From contig PBSN01000017.1 of assembly GCA_002726235.1 (NCBI GenBank), forward strand, positions 1 to 38,902: 38,902 bases of DNA, read 5' to 3'. The position numbers were made by a program. Source of the DNA: Nitrospiraceae bacterium. Lineage in GTDB: Bacteria > Nitrospirota > Nitrospiria > Nitrospirales > UBA2166. Positions 30,001 through 36,000 of the stretch are shown piece after piece (position 1 is the first letter of the stretch; every line of letters starts with the position of its first letter).

Positions 30001-33000
30001 GCCAATGAGTAGGGTGCGAAAAAGATGCTCCGGAAACCCGGCATCGAGAAAGATGGTTTCTATCGCAAGGGCACAACCTGGAACATTGGATGCGTGTTTC
30101 AGAATGCCTGCATTTCCTGCCATGAGCGCCGGGGCGGCAAATCGGAATACTTGCCAGAATGGAAAATTCCACGGCATTACGGCGAGAATGACCCCAAGAG
30201 GCTGGAAGGTCACAAAACTCCTGGTTGCTTCGGTTTTCACAATCTCCGGCGTCAAAAATGCTTTGGCATTGTCAGCATAATACTCACACACCCACGCACA
30301 TTTTTCAGCTTCCGCTTTGCCATCCTTTGCGGGTTTGCCCATTTCCTGCGCCATAAGTTTTCCATATTCAGCCGCGCGTTCTCTCAATATCCGAGCAACG
30401 TTGTGCATCGCGGCAGTGCGCACAGAAAATTCTATCCGCTTCCATGCGAGGAACGTACGATGTGTCTGCTCCACAAACGTCTCGACCTGATCGTCCGTCA
30501 TCGCATCGTATGCTTTGATGAGTTCGCCCGTTGTCGGATTTACCGATTCAATTGCCATCGTTATTTCCTCCGGTATCGTTTGCCTGCCCTATCAGCAAAA
30601 CGAGTCCTGTGGGATCTTGACCCCCTTCTTGTATCGTACGTTCAGCCATGATATTCATTGCTCGGTATGGACACAAGAGGCAAGATCGATGCAATTTGAT
30701 TATATGGATGCCGCCTAGCAGGTATCCTTTTGCGATGAAGAGCTCTAGGCTTTCCACTGATGATCGCAGGCACTGAGCAAGTACTCGAAGGCAAGGTTGA
30801 TTTTGTGGGCAATTAAGGGAACAGGATTACCCCTTACTGAGATATGATGAAGATGTGTTTTAAAGAGGAGATGATCCCGTGGTATATTCAGAAACGACCC
30901 GATCAATTGTGATCACTGTCTCTCCGACATTCATCGCCAACGAATCCTTTCCCAATACCGGGCACTATACTTGGAGCTATCACATTGAGATTCAGAATGA
31001 AGGCAAGGAACGGGTGCAACTCATCAACCGATATTGGAATGTCGCCGATGCCAATGGACAGGTCAATGAAGTCCGTGGCGAGGGGGTTGTGGGGGTGCAG
31101 CCGGTTTTGAATCCTGGGGAAGGCTTTGAATATACGAGTTTTGTGCCGATTCCAACACCATTCGGGATGATGTCGGGAACTTATGAAATGCTCCGCACCG
31201 ATGGAACCATGTTTAACGCTGTTATTCCAGCTTTCTCACTTGAGAGCCCGGACTTTCAAGCGAGCTTGAATTAATTAATCTTTACATTCAGCACGTCGTG
31301 ATTTCAAGTATGCAGGTGTTGCCGATGTCCTGATATTCCGTTCCGAGATAGCTTCCAGAAAGTTAAAACCATTAGTGAAACCCCTCTTCGCAGTCCAGCC
31401 TCTTGACGACATAGCTCTGATACTCATCATCTCCGATGAAGATGGCTATCAATCGAAACAAACTACTTCTTTACCTTCCAAACCGAATCCACGAAGTAGT
31501 TGTTTGCATCAAACAGGTGCTCCACAGTGTCATATCCGCTGTTCGCGGCAAGTGCTTTAATTTCATGTTGAGTGTACTTGTAGGAGTGTTCGGTTTGTAT
31601 TGGTTCCCACGCATCGAAATAAAACTTTTTCCCAAGTGCATCAATGGACACAACTTGCCTGCGCGTACTGTAAAGATAGCTCTCGACCGCATGTGTTCTC
31701 GGATTGTATTGTCCCTGCTGGACATAGTGATGCGTAGCAATGTCAGCTCCAAGTTTGTCGTTGATAATATCTAGCAGGTGAAGGTTGAATTTTTCAAACA
31801 GTCCCGTAGGATCGTTATAAGCGGAATAAAGAATTTTTGGGTGTTTCATGAGGTCAAATCCGATCATTACATAATCTCCGTCATTTAGCATTGCGTGGAG
31901 TTTCCGCAGGAACTGCTCAGCTTCGGGAAGTCTCATGTTCCCGATGGTCGAACCAAGGAATAAAACGATATTCCGCTGCTGTGGGTTCTCATCAATTGCA
32001 GCGAGACCGTCAAAATAATCCGCGGCCAATCCTTTTACCTCCAGCGCATTCCCTGAAAATTTTTTCTCCAACGAGGCAATGATATTTTTGATTGCGCCCT
32101 CTGATATGTCGATGGGAACGTAGGTAAATTTCAGATGGCTCTGAATAAAGTGCTCAAGAAGAACCATGGTTTTCCGGCCATCCCCGGCACCTAGCTCGAT
32201 GAGCTTAAAACATTCTTTCGAGAGGAGGTCTGTGATGACCTGTTTATGGGTGTGAAATATCTCAAACTCACATTGCGCGGGATGATATCCCGAAAGCTCC
32301 ATGATCTCGGTAAATATTTCGCTACCGCGATCATCGAATATCAACCACGATGGCAGATGCTTAGGGGTGTTCGATAACCCTTTAAGGACGGCTTGAGCGA
32401 ACTGATCATCCGATCGTTGCGCTGAGGCTCCCGATCGCAAATTGTGATATGCAAATGACATAGCGCTTCCTCTTTCTGGATGAAACGATGCAGTGTTTGA
32501 TCGACATGAAATTGCTTGATAAAATGCCCGCTCGCATTTCTTATACATTTTTTCATATTTTAATCGCGCCTTGATGCATCCTATGAACGTATCATCTTGC
32601 CAATCCGTTGACGAGGTCGATTATTGCGAAGCCGAGAAAGATTTTACGCGCTTGCTTCAACATGAAGATCTTGATCGGAAAATAGACACAACTCCCAAAT
32701 GTGTGGAATTATTTGAGAATACACTGAGCCTCGCGGTATCAGGCGTCTATGAGGAAAACATAAATTTTTCCAAAGCACATCTCTTTCTTCAACGAGTCTT
32801 GTATAGAATTAACCGATTAAAACTGTTTTGGTATGACGATCTTGAGAATTACGCCAATGAAAATTCAGCATTTCTCTTTGCCGTGAGGACAAAAATTGAT
32901 TCCGCATGGCAAGGCTGGGAAGCGCGGGCAACCGATGCCAACTCGTTGAAGCAGATAGATGTCGAGAAGGCACTTCGGAAACGCGTCGCCGAAGATCTTG

Positions 33001-36000
33001 ATCCAGAACCATCGCCGCCTGGCCTCTTCTTTCGGAACGAAATGTCGAGTGTCGGATACCGCCGGTTGTTGGCAATCTCCTCTCTGGATGGTTTGGTTGA
33101 AGCCAGCCAATTGTCACGAGTCATTGGGGGAGTAGGAAATGAAGTTCAAGCGATGCTCACCAAAATTTTGCTCGAAGAATACGGTGGCGGAAAACTGGCA
33201 AGAAAACATACGTCCTTCTTTGCGGCAATGCTGAATGAATTTGAGATGAACACCAAGCCGGAAGCCTATTTTGAGATTGTCCCGTGGGAGGTTTTAGCCA
33301 ATATCAACCATAGCTTTACCGTCTGTGAACGCAAACGAAATTTCTTGCGTTATATTGGGAGCCTTCTCTACTTTGAAACTTCAGTTCCTGCAGCGTTTCA
33401 GAACTATAAAATTGCAGGAGAACGTCTCGGATTTAGCCAAAGCGCTATTGGCTACTGGGACGTACACATCAAAGAGGACATCCGTCATGGACAATGGATG
33501 CTAAACGATGTCGCCATTCCCCTTATCGATCGTTATAAAAACTCAGCATGGGAAATTGTGCTTGGATACGATCAACAACGGTTTTTTAGTACCCGCGCCA
33601 GCCAGGCTGTTGCCAGATCAGTGCGGCAGTCTGAGAACGTCTGACTCTCTCTACAGTACATTACGTGCAACTGTTCATTTTACCCCTTGGCAGCGAAATA
33701 TTATCACTGTCAATTAGGAGAAAGGGCGCGTTGCGTTTTAGAGGTTTTCATCTGGGATAAAAAATGGATGGGCAAGAGATAAGAGAAGATTTCACCCTAT
33801 CCTCCAAACGGTAGGGTGAAGGGGTTGGTCGTGGTGATGATGTTTAGGTGATTGAACATCTGGGTAGCGTGGACGGTCCAGTCGATGAATGGTTTAGGGT
33901 AGATCCCCAATATTAATGTGCCGGCTATGGCCACGCTTATGCCCACTGTCATTGTCGGTGAAACCGTTAAGGGTGAAGGATCGGTAGGTTCGTTGATATA
34001 CATCTTCTTCACGACGATCAAGTAGTAGTACATTGAGATCACGACGTTGATCAGGCCGACAATGACCAGTGCAATCAGGCCAGCCTTCATTGCGGCAACA
34101 AAGATGTAGAGCTTGGCAATAAATCCTGCTAGTGGAGGCACTCCGGCCAACGATAATAGAAACAACAACATCGCAAAAGCTAGAAATGGTGAACGCCGGT
34201 TAAGACCATTGTAATCTTCGATCTCTTCGCTGTTGATGATGTGGGCTACCGCGATGACGACGGCAAATGCACCAAGGTTTGCGAAGAGATATGCCCACAG
34301 ATAAAACATGATGGATTCCCCGCCCATTTTGTTCGCAGCCGCGAGCCCAATAACTACGTTGCCTATCTGGGCAATTCCAGAATACGCAAGCAGACGTTTC
34401 ATGTTGCTCTGCGCGATCGCAACGATGTTTCCATAGGTCATTGAAATGATTGCCACCAGAACTAACAACCATACCCACTCTGCGGCAAACCCAGCCAGAG
34501 TGACGAAGAAGATGCGAAGAAGGATGGCTAACGCTGCACCTTTTGGAGCTACTGACAGAAACGCGGTGACCGGCGTAGGTGCCCCGTGATAGACGTCTGG
34601 TATCCACGTATGCAAGGGAACCGCGCCGATCTTGAAGCCCAATGCGGCAAAGAGAAGGAGAAAGCCGGCGATCAGTGCAGCCGAAGGTTCTCCCACTGCC
34701 TGGGCGATATCGGTTAGGATAAGTTTTCCGGTTGCCCCATAAATCAAACTAATCCCGAAAGCTAGTATTCCTGCGGTAAAGGCTCCGAGAATAAAGAATT
34801 TCAGTCCCGCTTCGTTGGATTTGGAGTCTTCACGAAGATAGGCCACTAAAATATAGAAGCCGAAGGTGGTGAATTCCAATGTAACGAAGATGCTGACGAG
34901 GTCATTGGCTGAGGCCATAAGCATTGCGCCGAGTGCCGACATCAAGACGAGAAAATAGTACTCCCCCCTAAATGCAGGGAATCGTTCGACTGACTCGATT
35001 GACATGGAAACAACAAGAATAGTCGATGTCACGATGAAAATTTTGAAATATATCGCCATGGGATCGAGGACGTACATCCCATTGAACAGGGTTCCGGTTT
35101 TCCCGTTGATGTAAAACCAAATAAGTGTGACCAGTGTGGCACATAGTCCGACGATGCTGAGATTGCCAATAACTTTTTTGTCTACATGCGAGGGAATGGC
35201 ATCAACGGCCAATAACATGCAGATCCAGAGGGTCAAAAAGATCTCCGGTAACAGGAGGAGAAGATCCGCGCTGGACAGAGAGAGGGTGAAGTTCATGGAA
35301 GAACTCCAGCTTCGATTTCACCGTGAATCTTGGCAAGTAATGGTTCGACGCTCGATCCGATGACGTCGATGAACTGACCGGGGAATATACCGAAGTAAAT
35401 GGTACAAGCGATCATAACCAAGAGTGGCATACGGTTTACAAATCCGTTGGCGTCTTGGACATGGGCCCATTTCATCTCGGTCTCATAGGGGATTGCTTTC
35501 CCTGGCTCCCAGAAAAATACACCACGAAGCATGCGTAGTAGATACGCTAAGGTCACCACGATGGCGAGCACAGCGATGATGGTCTGCACCGGATATTTGT
35601 CCCAGCTTCCAATCAAGATCATAAGTTCGCCAATGAAGCTGACGGTCCCCGGCAGTCCAAATGACGCGGCGACTGCAACCACAAAGCAACCGGTTGCAAA
35701 CGGCATCTTGCGGGAGAGCCCTCCAAGTGAGGGAATATCGCGGGTATGTGTCTGGTCATATACCCATCCGGCAAGAGCAAACAACAGGCCGGTCGCCATC
35801 GCGTGTGCAAACATATAAAGTACTGCGCCTGTCAAACTTACATATGTAAGGGCGGCCATGCCTAAGAATACATAGCCCATGTGACTGGAGCTGGAGTATC
35901 CAATGACGTACTTAGTGTCATTCTGGGAATAGGCGACCCATCCGCCATAGATGATGCTGAAGACACATAGTATTGCAGCGATTGGCATCAAGTCTCGTGT

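What a model noticed while it worked through the whole genome (the two positions that open the first line are those of the whole stretch)
31463..33644. A conserved divergent gene pair: EgtD-like amino-acid N-methyltransferase plus haem-oxygenase-like diiron oxidase, excha [...]
g01520 (Methyltransf_33, 29-32% to EgtD; a bona fide EgtD, g00215, is elsewhere) and g01521 (Haem_oxygenas_2, distantly like SznF) are transcribed divergently 112 nt apart. Both have the same best relatives at 70-76% identity in Ignavibacteria and marine UBA8639 Nitrospirales. I propose a two-enzyme route to an oxidised amino-acid betaine of unknown structure.
Evidence so far: Call 99: domains, EgtD 31.6%, SznF 26% (E 8e-6); shared best-hit genomes JAPUKJ01 70.8/75.6%, JAALKI01 71.1/74.1%, JAYWMS01 70.5/71.0%. 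neighbours.tsv: the two families lie within two genes in at least 161 genomes (19 Nitrospirales) of 18,459 with both. Searches 101, 102 found no paper on such a pair.
(Added by a program. Inside this text positions count along the whole contig: contig position 1 is position 1 of the stretch shown here. "Call 12" and the like, gene names such as g00115 and contig names such as C1 are that model's own, and its searches are not shown. The text may have been shortened before it was handed on; [...] marks where a part breaks off. The agent that wrote the report below was given it as the finding of a first reader that could run no searches.)

Follow-up and report, generated by a model that had tools for sequence, protein, structure and literature searches.

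The report
Methyltransferase–diiron oxygenase pair, product unknown
A two-gene unit kept together in marine nitrite-oxidising bacteria pairs an amino-acid methyltransferase with an iron-dependent oxygenase, and probably makes a small molecule that nobody has yet identified.

Summary
An EgtD-family methyltransferase (MT, 31463-32461, minus strand) and a heme-oxygenase-like diiron enzyme (HDO, 32583-33644, plus strand) lie back to back, 112-121 nt apart.

- **The MT is not a canonical EgtD.** It keeps the residues that hold an amino acid's alpha-amino and carboxylate groups. It scores below NCBI's EgtD cut-off, and its side-chain pocket differs: T213F in 30 of 30 orthologues, M252S in 28 of 30.
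- **The HDO looks like an N-oxygenase.** It has all seven metal ligands of the SznF/RohS type. The best fold matches of its model are HrmI, SznF and RohS.
- **The pair is conserved.** It is adjacent and divergent in 56 of 70 HDO-bearing Nitrospinota genomes and in all 4 related Nitrospirales genomes.
- **The HDO is the constant part.** In cyanobacteria its orthologue occurs in exactly the same 49 of 401 genomes as an unrelated NPPY-type N-methyltransferase, and one record fuses the two. Another Nitrospirota lineage uses a third MT type. Thirteen Nitrospinota genomes have the HDO and no MT match.

Best reading: a two-enzyme route to an N-methylated, HDO-oxidised amino-acid derivative. Substrate and product are unknown. 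The "Ignavibacteria" relative is probably a mis-binned contig. None of ten literature searches found a paper on such a pair.

The parts
31463..32461 (-). EgtD-family (Methyltransf_33) amino-acid N-alpha-methyltransferase paralogue, 332 aa from the likely start M30. The open frame runs on to 32548.
   Evidence: ORF. PF10017, 300 bits, profile positions 1-303 of 304. TIGR03438 270.7 bits, below the 290.9 cut-off; residues equivalent to Mtb EgtD Y56, T163, N166, Y206, E282 and S284 are kept; T213 is F and M252 is S; orthologues are 332 aa.
32462..32582 (.). Divergent intergenic region of 121 nt with sequence blocks conserved among Nitrospirales orthologous loci.
   Evidence: alignment of 18 intergenic regions. 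No Rfam match at E <= 1 in 31000-34200.
32497..32525 (+). Sigma-70-like promoter facing the HDO gene: TTGATC, 17 nt, TAAAAT, with TG before the second hexamer.
   Evidence: consensus scan; 7 sites found in 2.5 kb against 4.4 expected, so the scan alone is weak. One search shows that both hexamer blocks fall in the columns conserved across the 18 aligned loci. Function is inferred.
32583..33644 (+). Heme-oxygenase-like diiron enzyme (HDO) of the seven-ligand, N-oxygenase-type subgroup, 353 aa from the likely start M5. The open frame begins at TTG 32571.
   Evidence: PF14518, 92 bits. RohS 5e-14, SznF 4e-8, HrmI 1e-6. E177, E203, H213, E269, H299, D303 and H306 match SznF E189, E215, H225, E281, H311, D315 and H318, and are invariant in 34 of 34 orthologues; model pLDDT 83.8; Foldseek top matches HrmI (TMq 0.77), SznF, RohS.

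Best explanation
The two genes form a self-contained, two-enzyme small-molecule pathway. The HDO is an O2-activating diiron enzyme of the seven-ligand (3 His / 4 carboxylate) subgroup. It most likely oxygenates a nitrogen of a free amino acid, or of a close derivative, as SznF, RohS and HrmI do. The EgtD-family enzyme uses S-adenosylmethionine to methylate the alpha-amino group of that same amino-acid skeleton, possibly up to the betaine. Its reshaped side-chain pocket argues that the substrate is not plain histidine.

The HDO occurs without the MT, but the MT was never found without the HDO. I therefore infer that the HDO acts on a common metabolite and the MT modifies its product. The reverse order is not excluded.

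The product would be an N-oxygenated, N-methylated amino acid. Its role is unknown. A stress-protective, metal-binding or redox-active metabolite of marine nitrite oxidisers is the most plausible class.

- **Shown:** gene anatomy, family and fold, ligand and pocket residues, conservation and co-inheritance, and replacement of the MT by other MT types elsewhere.
- **Inferred:** N-oxygenation, the amino-acid substrate, the order of steps, the degree of methylation and the physiological role.
For: 1. **HDO class.** Sequence matches to solved chains are N-oxygenases apart from one chance-level hit: RohS 5e-14, SznF 4e-8, HrmI 1e-6. The listed Foldseek matches down to rank 18 are all HrmI, SznF or RohS chains, and the HrmI match spans 343 alignment columns of the 353-residue model.
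2. **Metal ligands.** All seven ligands, including the auxiliary-helix Glu so far seen in SznF and RohS (PMC13133933, passages), are invariant in 34 of 34 orthologues.
3. **MT substrate site.** The MT keeps the residues that bind the alpha-amino and carboxylate groups in Mtb EgtD: Y56, N166, Y206 and S284 (PMC8593015, passages). T213, which positions the water that bonds the imidazole, is F in 30 of 30 orthologues. M252 is S in 28 of 30. This genome's true EgtD has T and I at those positions. The MT falls below the EgtD equivalog cut-off.
4. **Linkage.** Adjacent and divergent in 56 of 70 HDO-bearing Nitrospinota genomes, in 4 of 4 related Nitrospirales genomes and in 31 of 39 loci. Flanking genes differ between lineages.
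5. **Congruent trees.** The HDO and MT trees agree in their major groups and sister pairs.
6. **Independent coupling of the HDO to methylation.** Cyanobacterial orthologues (46-59 % identical) occur in exactly the same 49 of 401 genomes as an N-methyltransferase with an invariant NPPY motif (22 of 22), adjacent in 47 of 49. One 681-aa record fuses the two. A Nitrospirota family-f8 genome has a Methyltransf_25 gene 33 nt downstream of the HDO.
7. **Joint decay.** Both genes are broken by IS elements in L041. Both are degraded in cyanobacterium G482.
8. **Order of steps.** Thirteen Nitrospinota genomes have the HDO and no MT match. The MT without the HDO appears only as two contig-end fragments.
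9. **Weak hints of role.** An OpuAC-type betaine ABC transporter lies downstream in 2 loci and an RND pump in 3. An MscS channel and a universal stress protein are neighbours in one locus each.
Against: - No substrate, product or activity was observed. Everything about the chemistry is by analogy.
- The solved relatives are only 18-22 % identical to the model.
- The 2026 HDO review (PMC13108848, passages) stresses that HDOs with identical ligand sets do different chemistry. It also notes that HrmI is an N-oxygenase with only six ligands. Ligand count therefore does not fix the reaction.
- E282, which contacts histidine's side chain in EgtD, is kept in 30 of 30 orthologues. Histidine or an imidazole derivative is not excluded.
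- The three MT types need not methylate the same atom, so the cyanobacterial system may make a different compound.
- The HDO stands alone in 13 Nitrospinota genomes, so methylation is not essential to its function.
- Transporter and stress-gene neighbours are few and lineage-specific.
- No riboswitch or other Rfam element marks the metabolite.
Confidence: 0.5

Rival explanations
1. The MT is a true histidine methyltransferase that makes hercynine (or mono- or dimethylhistidine). The HDO then oxidises the imidazole side chain. This would be a new oxygen-dependent branch of histidine-betaine metabolism, such as an alternative route towards an ergothioneine-like compound.
For: - E282 and all backbone-binding residues are kept.
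- The TIGR03438 score of 270.7 is not far below the 290.9 cut-off.
- Public records name the protein L-histidine N(alpha)-methyltransferase.
- By sequence, the closest solved HDO relative is RohS, which acts on an imidazole, 2-aminoimidazole.
- Nitrospinota genomes show a single Methyltransf_33 gene, this one.
- No EgtB over the cut-off was found in this genome.
Against: - T213F is invariant and M252S nearly so, removing known imidazole contacts.
- The Nitrospirales genomes with the pair keep a separate 30-33 % identical EgtD-like gene.
- Two cyanobacterial genomes with the HDO carry EgtD-like genes elsewhere, yet their HDO sits beside a non-EgtD methyltransferase.
- The HDO exists without any Methyltransf_33 gene in 13 Nitrospinota genomes.
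Confidence: 0.15
2. The pair is a biosynthetic module, but the HDO does carbon chemistry rather than N-oxygenation: hydroxylation, desaturation, decarboxylation or C-C cleavage, as in UndA, BesC, FlcD or AetD. The product would be a modified-skeleton betaine, for instance a compatible solute.
For: - HDOs with similar ligand sets do very different reactions (PMC13108848, passages).
- FlcD and BesC appear among weaker fold matches.
- A betaine-type ABC transporter (OpuAC) follows the HDO in 2 Nitrospinaceae loci.
- Among Nitrospirota, the family was found only in the marine-labelled lineages sampled.
Against: - The seventh Glu ligand, which replaces the substrate carboxylate of the substrate-triggered C-C-cleaving HDOs (PMC13133933, passages), is invariant.
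- No sequence match to UndA, BesC, AetD, FlcD or CADD at E <= 1.
- All stronger fold matches are N-oxygenases.
- Many cyanobacteria that carry the orthologue have large (5-8 Mb) genomes, which I take to be not specifically marine. That is my inference; taxonomy was hidden.
Confidence: 0.2
3. The HDO is a protective protein rather than a biosynthetic enzyme, like DtpC of Acinetobacter baumannii. It would sequester iron or scavenge reactive oxygen species. The methyltransferase neighbours would be only co-regulated with it.
For: - DtpC is an HDO whose metal ligands are needed for protection against desiccation-induced oxidative stress, and no product is known for it (PMC13232832, passages).
- The HDO occurs alone in 13 Nitrospinota genomes.
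- A universal stress protein and an MscS channel are neighbours in single loci.
Against: - Three unrelated methyltransferases have been recruited next to it.
- Co-occurrence in cyanobacteria is exact (49 and 49 of 401, the same genomes), and a fusion protein exists.
- I could not compare DtpC's sequence with this HDO, so kinship is untested.
Confidence: 0.08
4. The two genes are unrelated neighbours that merely share an intergenic region.
For: Divergent genes need not be co-regulated, and no direct evidence of co-expression was obtained (one search shows only patchy RNA-library contigs).
Against: - The adjacency and divergent orientation are kept in 56 of 70 Nitrospinota and 4 of 4 Nitrospirales genomes while the flanks change.
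- The two trees are congruent.
- The MT was never found without the HDO, apart from two contig-end fragments.
- Both genes are disrupted together in L041.
Confidence: 0.02

Closest known systems
SznE / SznF (streptozotocin pathway): an N-methyltransferase plus an HDO N-oxygenase acting on arginine
   Same: The logic is the same: N-methylation plus HDO oxygenation of a free amino acid. The HDO shares all seven SznF ligands, including E189, and also D185. It is a fold match to the SznF central domain (TMq 0.63-0.66).
   Different: There is no cupin domain and no N-terminal dimerisation domain (353 aa, only PF14518), so N-nitrosourea formation is not expected. Identity is only about 20 %. The MT is an EgtD-type alpha-N enzyme. 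SznE's own family is not known to me from any call. There is no larger gene cluster.
RohS (azomycin pathway): an HDO that oxidises 2-aminoimidazole to 2-nitroimidazole
   Same: It is the closest solved relative by sequence (E 5e-14). It has the same seven ligand positions, PbrRohS E98, E124, H134, E190, H218, D222 and H225. It is likewise a single-domain HDO.
   Different: No roh-type neighbours are present. The flanks here are ApaG, an aldehyde dehydrogenase and Nuo subunits, and they vary between lineages. The HDO here is about 65 residues longer than RohS and partnered with a methyltransferase.
[quoted passage not shown]
   Same: This is the best full-length structural match (TMq 0.77-0.78, 338-345 columns). 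The substrate is a free amino acid whose backbone is anchored while the side-chain nitrogen approaches Fe1 (PMC13108848, passages).
   Different: HrmI has six ligands (3H/3C), whereas this HDO has the extra Glu. Identity is 18 %, and the sequence match is only 1e-6 over the C-terminal half.
EgtD (L-histidine N-alpha-methyltransferase of ergothioneine synthesis)
   Same: Same family and fold, matched over the full length. The SAM-dependent alpha-N-methylation machinery and the backbone-binding residues are kept.
   Different: - 30 % identity to this genome's own EgtD.
- Below the equivalog cut-off.
- Pocket changes T213F and M252S.
- Partnered with an HDO instead of EgtB or EanB. No EgtB passing the cut-off is present in the genome.
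DtpC of Acinetobacter baumannii (an orphan HDO needed for desiccation tolerance)
   Same: It is an orphan single-domain HDO with a physiological, possibly stress-related role and no known product (PMC13232832, passages).
   Different: DtpC is co-transcribed with a catalase, not a methyltransferase. Its sequence relationship to this HDO was not tested here.

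Membership tests
EgtD (L-histidine N-alpha-methyltransferase, TIGR03438) | Full-length Methyltransf_33 domain | tested here: met
   PF10017, 300 bits, profile positions 1-303 of 304. Solved EgtD chains match at E 2e-39 to 3e-35.
EgtD (L-histidine N-alpha-methyltransferase, TIGR03438) | Score above NCBI's equivalog cut-off | tested here: not met
   270.7 bits against a cut-off of 290.9. The genome's other copy scores 326.1.
EgtD (L-histidine N-alpha-methyltransferase, TIGR03438) | Residues that bind the alpha-amino and carboxylate groups (Mtb Y56, N166, Y206, S284) | tested here: met
   Kept in the window protein. Across 30 orthologues: 29, 30, 30 and 30 of 30.
EgtD (L-histidine N-alpha-methyltransferase, TIGR03438) | Imidazole-specific pocket (T213 with its water; M252; E282) | tested here: not met
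   T213 is F in 30 of 30 and M252 is S in 28 of 30. Only E282 is kept, in 30 of 30. The own EgtD has T, I and E. The roles of T213 and E282 are from PMC8593015 (passages). The role of M252 is recalled from the literature, not from a call.
EgtD (L-histidine N-alpha-methyltransferase, TIGR03438) | Genomic partnership with a sulfur-transfer enzyme (EgtB or EanB) | tested here: not met
   The best TIGR03440 match in the genome is 84.9 bits against a cut-off of 360. That gene has an FGE-sulfatase domain only. The neighbour here is an HDO. EanB was not searched for.
EgtD (L-histidine N-alpha-methyltransferase, TIGR03438) | Methylates L-histidine to hercynine | not testable with these tools
   Needs an enzyme assay.
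HDO superfamily (heme-oxygenase-like diiron oxidases and oxygenases) | Heme-oxygenase-like helical fold / PF14518 domain | tested here: met
   PF14518, 92 bits. The model is all-helical, pLDDT 83.8, pTM 0.84. 27 Foldseek matches have E <= 0.001; those listed are all HDOs apart from one 2007 entry titled as a putative 3-oxoacyl-ACP synthase.
HDO superfamily (heme-oxygenase-like diiron oxidases and oxygenases) | Six core metal ligands (E, H, E and the HxxxDxxH motif) | tested here: met
   E203, H213, E269, H299, D303 and H306 align with SznF E215, H225, E281, H311, D315 and H318. They are invariant in 34 of 34 orthologues.
3H/4C (SznF/RohS-type) N-oxygenase subgroup of HDOs | Seventh ligand: a Glu on auxiliary helix 2 | tested here: met
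   E177 aligns with SznF E189 and PbrRohS E98 and is invariant in 34 of 34. This rests on sequence alignment. The geometry in the model was not inspected.
3H/4C (SznF/RohS-type) N-oxygenase subgroup of HDOs | Catalyses N-oxygenation | not testable with these tools
   Needs an assay. The assignment of this subgroup as N-oxygenases is itself called tentative by its authors (10.1101/2020.07.29.227702, abstract).
SznF proper | Tri-domain architecture with a C-terminal cupin | tested here: not met
   The protein is 353-357 aa with PF14518 as its only domain. Among longer relatives, one is a methyltransferase fusion and the other, a eukaryote protein, has only a low-complexity N-terminal extension; neither carries a cupin.
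RohS proper (azomycin cluster) | Membership of the five-gene roh cluster | tested here: not met
   The neighbours are ApaG, an aldehyde dehydrogenase and Nuo subunits. Only the MT is conserved next to the HDO.

The most novel reading that the evidence does not exclude
The HDO clade and its interchangeable N-methyltransferase partners make a previously unknown class of N-oxygenated, N-methylated amino acids (N-hydroxy, nitro or N-oxide betaines). These would be produced by over half of the sampled Nitrospinota species genomes, by marine Nitrospirales, by about an eighth of sampled cyanobacteria and by at least one eukaryote. They would act as a redox-active, NO/HNO-releasing, metal-binding or stress-protective metabolite in the ocean's nitrite-oxidising and phototrophic microbes.
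Probability: 0.25. Interest if true: 0.8.

Novelty: new variant of a known kind. Interest (0 to 1): 0.62.

Why it matters
Nitrospina and marine Nitrospira carry out most nitrite oxidation in the sea. An orphan enzyme pair present in 56 of 120 sampled Nitrospinota species genomes points to a metabolite that nobody has looked for.

- **For enzymology.** This is a compact, soluble, two-gene system from the least-explored (seven-ligand) branch of the HDO superfamily. Natural experiments are already on hand: three different methyltransferase partners, a fusion protein and stand-alone forms. That makes it a good target for deorphanisation.
- **For annotation.** Public records call the MT 'L-histidine N(alpha)-methyltransferase'. 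Ergothioneine capacity is therefore probably over-predicted in these nitrite oxidisers.

Tried and rejected
- **Riboswitch or other RNA element that might name the metabolite.** No Rfam match at E <= 1 in window 31000-34200. Only tRNAs in 11 related loci.
- **A third conserved pathway gene.** Clustering of the flanking ORFs in 39, 25 and 15 loci found none. A 2Fe-2S ferredoxin lies beside the MT in only 3 loci. OpuAC-type ABC transporter genes follow the HDO in 2 loci and an RND pump in 3.
- **An AlaDH-like gene near the HDO in two phyla (L052, L079).** The L079 copy is an ordinary alanine dehydrogenase sitting among proline and YggS genes. I dropped it as coincidence.
- **Context in Pseudomonadota.** 0 of 400 further genomes had the HDO. 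The one 'Phenylobacterium' hit is a 4.6 kb contig that groups with Nitrospinota.
- **NPPY-type MT in Nitrospinota.** 0 of 120 genomes at E <= 1e-8. That call itself warns that an empty answer shows little.
- **Transcription.** Contigs from two RNA libraries (X19, X20) match short parts of both genes at 100 % identity. They are patchy, DNA carry-over cannot be excluded, and two further RNA runs gave nothing. No conclusion was drawn.
- **Composition.** G+C is 44-46 % over the pair against 47-50 % in the flanks. That is too small a dip to argue for recent transfer.
- **Literature.** Ten searches found no paper on an EgtD-like/HDO pair or on the cyanobacterial pair. The library lacks most subscription journals.
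- **HrmI structure paper (PMC13420876).** It is not held, so its substrate-anchoring residues could not be mapped onto this HDO.
- **Not attempted.** Substrate docking or pocket geometry (no coordinates are available to scripts), a fold of the MT, and a complex prediction (I make no claim that the proteins bind).

Full report
**What is there.** The window holds two divergent ORFs at the stated place: 31463-32548 (-, 361 aa) and 32571-33644 (+, 357 aa). The first is a full-length Methyltransf_33 protein (300 bits). The second carries a Haem_oxygenas_2 domain (92 bits). Orthologues are mostly 332 aa and 353 aa. The likely starts are therefore 32461 and 32583, leaving 121 nt between the genes, or 112 nt with the ATG at 32574.

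The flanks are ApaG, an aldehyde dehydrogenase, a MutS2-like gene and Lgt on one side, and three Proton_antipo_M (Nuo-like) genes on the other. The intergenic region has blocks conserved in 18 Nitrospirales loci. These coincide with a TTGATC-17-TAAAAT promoter-like site facing the HDO. No Rfam element is present.

**The methyltransferase.**
- It matches solved EgtD chains at E 2e-39.
- It scores 270.7 bits against NCBI's EgtD equivalog, whose cut-off is 290.9. A second gene in the genome (G000:C3:8347-9252) scores 326.1.
- The two are 30 % identical.

I mapped the alignment onto the residue roles described for M. tuberculosis EgtD (PMC8593015, passages read). The residues that hold the alpha-amino and carboxylate groups (Y56, N166, Y206, S284), and also T163, are kept. 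T213, which positions the water that bonds the imidazole, is Phe in 30 of 30 orthologues. M252 is Ser in 28 of 30. Y39 is Phe in 25 of 30. E282 is kept in 30 of 30. The genome's true EgtD has T, I, Y and E at those positions.

So this is an amino-acid alpha-N-methyltransferase with a consistently remodelled side-chain pocket. No EgtB passing its cut-off is in the genome: the best match is 84.9 bits against 360, and that gene has only an FGE-sulfatase domain. Public records nevertheless name the protein a histidine methyltransferase.

**The oxygenase.**
- By sequence, every solved relative below chance level is an HDO N-oxygenase: RohS 5e-14, SznF 4e-8, HrmI 1e-6. Nothing from UndA, BesC, AetD, FlcD or CADD appears at E <= 1.
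- The alignments place E177, E203, H213, E269, H299, D303 and H306 on SznF's E189, E215, H225, E281, H311, D315 and H318. They also fall on PbrRohS's seven ligands once the 21-residue offset of that chain is allowed for.
- All seven are invariant in 34 of 34 orthologues. D173, the equivalent of SznF D185, is kept in 31 of 34.
- The seventh Glu marks the subgroup that its discoverers tentatively call N-oxygenases (10.1101/2020.07.29.227702, abstract and passages).
- An AlphaFold model built from a 24-sequence alignment has pLDDT 83.8 and pTM 0.84. Its best fold matches are HrmI (TMq 0.77-0.78, up to 345 alignment columns), SznF and RohS. FlcD, CADD and BesC come far behind.

Two caveats apply. 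Identity to these enzymes is only 18-22 %. The 2026 review stresses that the ligand set does not determine the reaction, and that HrmI has six ligands (PMC13108848, passages).

**Is the pair real?** Yes.
- Of 39 loci found with the HDO in genome contigs, 31 hold the MT immediately upstream on the other strand. Four of the other eight are cut by a contig end less than 900 nt upstream. Three are cyanobacterial. One (L034) has 6 kb of upstream DNA and no MT.
- Flanking genes are not conserved between lineages.
- In all 120 Nitrospinota genomes held, the HDO is in 70 and the MT in 59. They are adjacent and divergent in 56.
- One further Nitrospinota genome has the two genes on different contigs, the HDO at a contig end. 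The two genomes with the MT only have it as a contig-end fragment.
- In an even sample of 401 Nitrospirota genomes the HDO is in 7, this genome included. The counts are 4 of 40 in the neighbouring family f3, 2 of 3 in f8 and 0 of 75 in f2. All four f3 genomes have the MT adjacent and divergent, plus a separate 30-33 % identical EgtD-like gene.
- The HDO and MT trees agree in their main groups and in their sister pairs.
- In L041, a Nitrospirales genome, both genes are split by IS4-, IS1595- and IS200-type elements.

**The HDO is the constant part.** The HDO tree (65 rows, quick search) has two well-supported halves.

One half holds Nitrospinota, with the 21 Nitrospirales rows as a single clade (support 100) nested among them. 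With the midpoint root, this suggests transfer of the pair from Nitrospinota into marine Nitrospirales. The 'Ignavibacteria' record (a 3.1 kb contig) sits beside a Nitrospirae record in both trees and shares the neighbouring ferredoxin gene with two Nitrospirota loci. The 'Phenylobacterium' record (a 4.6 kb contig) groups with Nitrospinota, and that genome has no MT orthologue. I read both as mis-binned contigs.

The other half holds cyanobacteria and Nitrospirota family f8.
- In a sample of 401 cyanobacterial genomes the HDO orthologue (46-59 % identical) is in 49.
- A small methyltransferase with weak HemK-like matches and an invariant NPPY motif (22 of 22) is in 49.
- These are the same 49 genomes. 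The genes are adjacent in 47 of them, with the MT always at the HDO's 3' side: 23 pairs co-directional, 25 convergent, none divergent.
- In G482 both genes are degraded.
- One 681-aa record (P0243, a single Logan contig) is an HDO fused to this MT. An assembly or frameshift artefact cannot be excluded for a single record.
- In f8 genome G315 a Methyltransf_25 gene follows the HDO after 33 nt, and an MscS channel gene lies divergently upstream. That genome has no EgtD-like gene.
- A eukaryote protein from EukProt (P0244) is 42 % identical to the window HDO and 50 % identical to the cyanobacterial type.

Three unrelated methyltransferases have thus been recruited to one HDO clade. In 13 Nitrospinota genomes the HDO has no MT match. 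Ten of these loci were fetched, and none shows a methyltransferase or any conserved neighbour. The NPPY-type MT was not found in any of the 120.

**How it most likely works.** The HDO activates O2 at a diiron site and oxygenates a nitrogen of a free amino acid or a near derivative. The MT methylates the alpha-amino group of the same skeleton.

The MT was never found without the HDO, while the HDO can stand alone. The simplest order is therefore oxidation of a common metabolite first, then methylation. This is inference.

The retained Glu (E282), together with a new Phe and a smaller Ser in the MT pocket, would suit a side chain that ends in a hydrogen-bond donor or cation. Arginine, lysine or ornithine and their N-hydroxy forms are candidates, as are glutamine-derived hydroxamates. 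It does not exclude an imidazole. I cannot choose among these.

Hints of role are thin. Betaine-type ABC transporter genes follow the HDO in 2 Nitrospinaceae loci and an RND pump in 3. An MscS channel and a universal stress protein are neighbours in single loci. The DNA recurs in marine, seawater and hydrothermal-vent metagenomes of 14 studies. An orphan HDO, DtpC, protects Acinetobacter baumannii from desiccation-induced oxidative stress (PMC13232832, passages). Its kinship to this HDO was not tested.

**Known or new?** The logic resembles SznE/SznF: N-methylation plus HDO N-oxygenation of an amino acid. The protein is not SznF, because it has no cupin. It is not RohS, because there is no roh cluster. 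It is not an EgtD by NCBI's cut-off or by its pocket.

Ten searches of the held library found no paper on an EgtD-like/HDO pair or on the cyanobacterial pair. Subscription journals are largely missing from that library.

I rate the finding a new variant of a known kind. It is a widespread, orphan HDO-plus-N-methyltransferase system whose product is unknown.

Noticed in passing
G000:C3:8347-9252 (L001:1429-2415): The genome's bona fide EgtD (TIGR03438, 326 bits) sits between a release-factor-3 gene and a gene with only a weak nitrosocyanin-model match. No EgtB passing its cut-off was found anywhere in the 90.65 %-complete genome. How hercynine would be used here is open. EanB was not searched for.
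   Followed up: partly
L041:2610-10685: In a Nitrospirales genome with a 4.63 Mb contig, both the MT and the HDO are broken into pieces by IS4-like, IS1595 (two copies) and IS200-type transposase genes. The module is being lost as a unit.
   Followed up: yes
G482:C1:194480-195244: In one 3.3 Mb cyanobacterial genome both the HDO (only residues 16-189 match) and the adjacent NPPY-type MT (only residues 160-245, with stops) are remnants.
   Followed up: no
L072:4448-5752, L073:4385-5756, L062:7265-8639: In three related cyanobacterial loci a fatty-acid-hydroxylase-type membrane diiron domain fused to a rhodanese domain lies directly beside the HDO. It is intact in L072 and split into two ORFs in L062 and L073. 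Relevance is unknown.
   Followed up: no
P0244 (EukProt record, 626 aa): A eukaryote transcript encodes an HDO of this clade with all ligand motifs. It is 42 % identical to the window protein and 50 % to the cyanobacterial type, and has a 280-residue low-complexity N-terminal extension.
   Followed up: partly
L006 (JAPUKJ01, 3.1 kb) and L031 (JBLGCB01, 4.6 kb): The 'Ignavibacteria' and 'Phenylobacterium' records that carry the genes are short contigs. Their genes nest inside the Nitrospirales and Nitrospinota clades respectively, so binning errors are likely. L026, labelled 'Nitrospirae', likewise nests inside Nitrospinaceae.
   Followed up: partly
L052:2855-8716: In Nitrospirota family-f8 genome G315 the HDO and Methyltransf_25 pair is flanked by a divergent MscS channel gene, a diverged alanine-dehydrogenase-like gene and a phage-integrase-family gene. 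This may be a mobile or stress-related island.
   Followed up: no
window 31000-33500: G+C is 44-46 % over the pair against 47-50 % in the flanks. The same flanks (MutS2-like, aldehyde dehydrogenase, ApaG | pair | three Nuo-like genes) recur in L004; the Nuo-like side alone also recurs in L005 and L030.
   Followed up: partly
window 33797-38462: Three consecutive Proton_antipo_M genes (499, 531 and 525 aa) lie on the minus strand directly downstream of the HDO. They look like NuoN/M/L-type or Mrp-type antiporter subunits.
   Followed up: no
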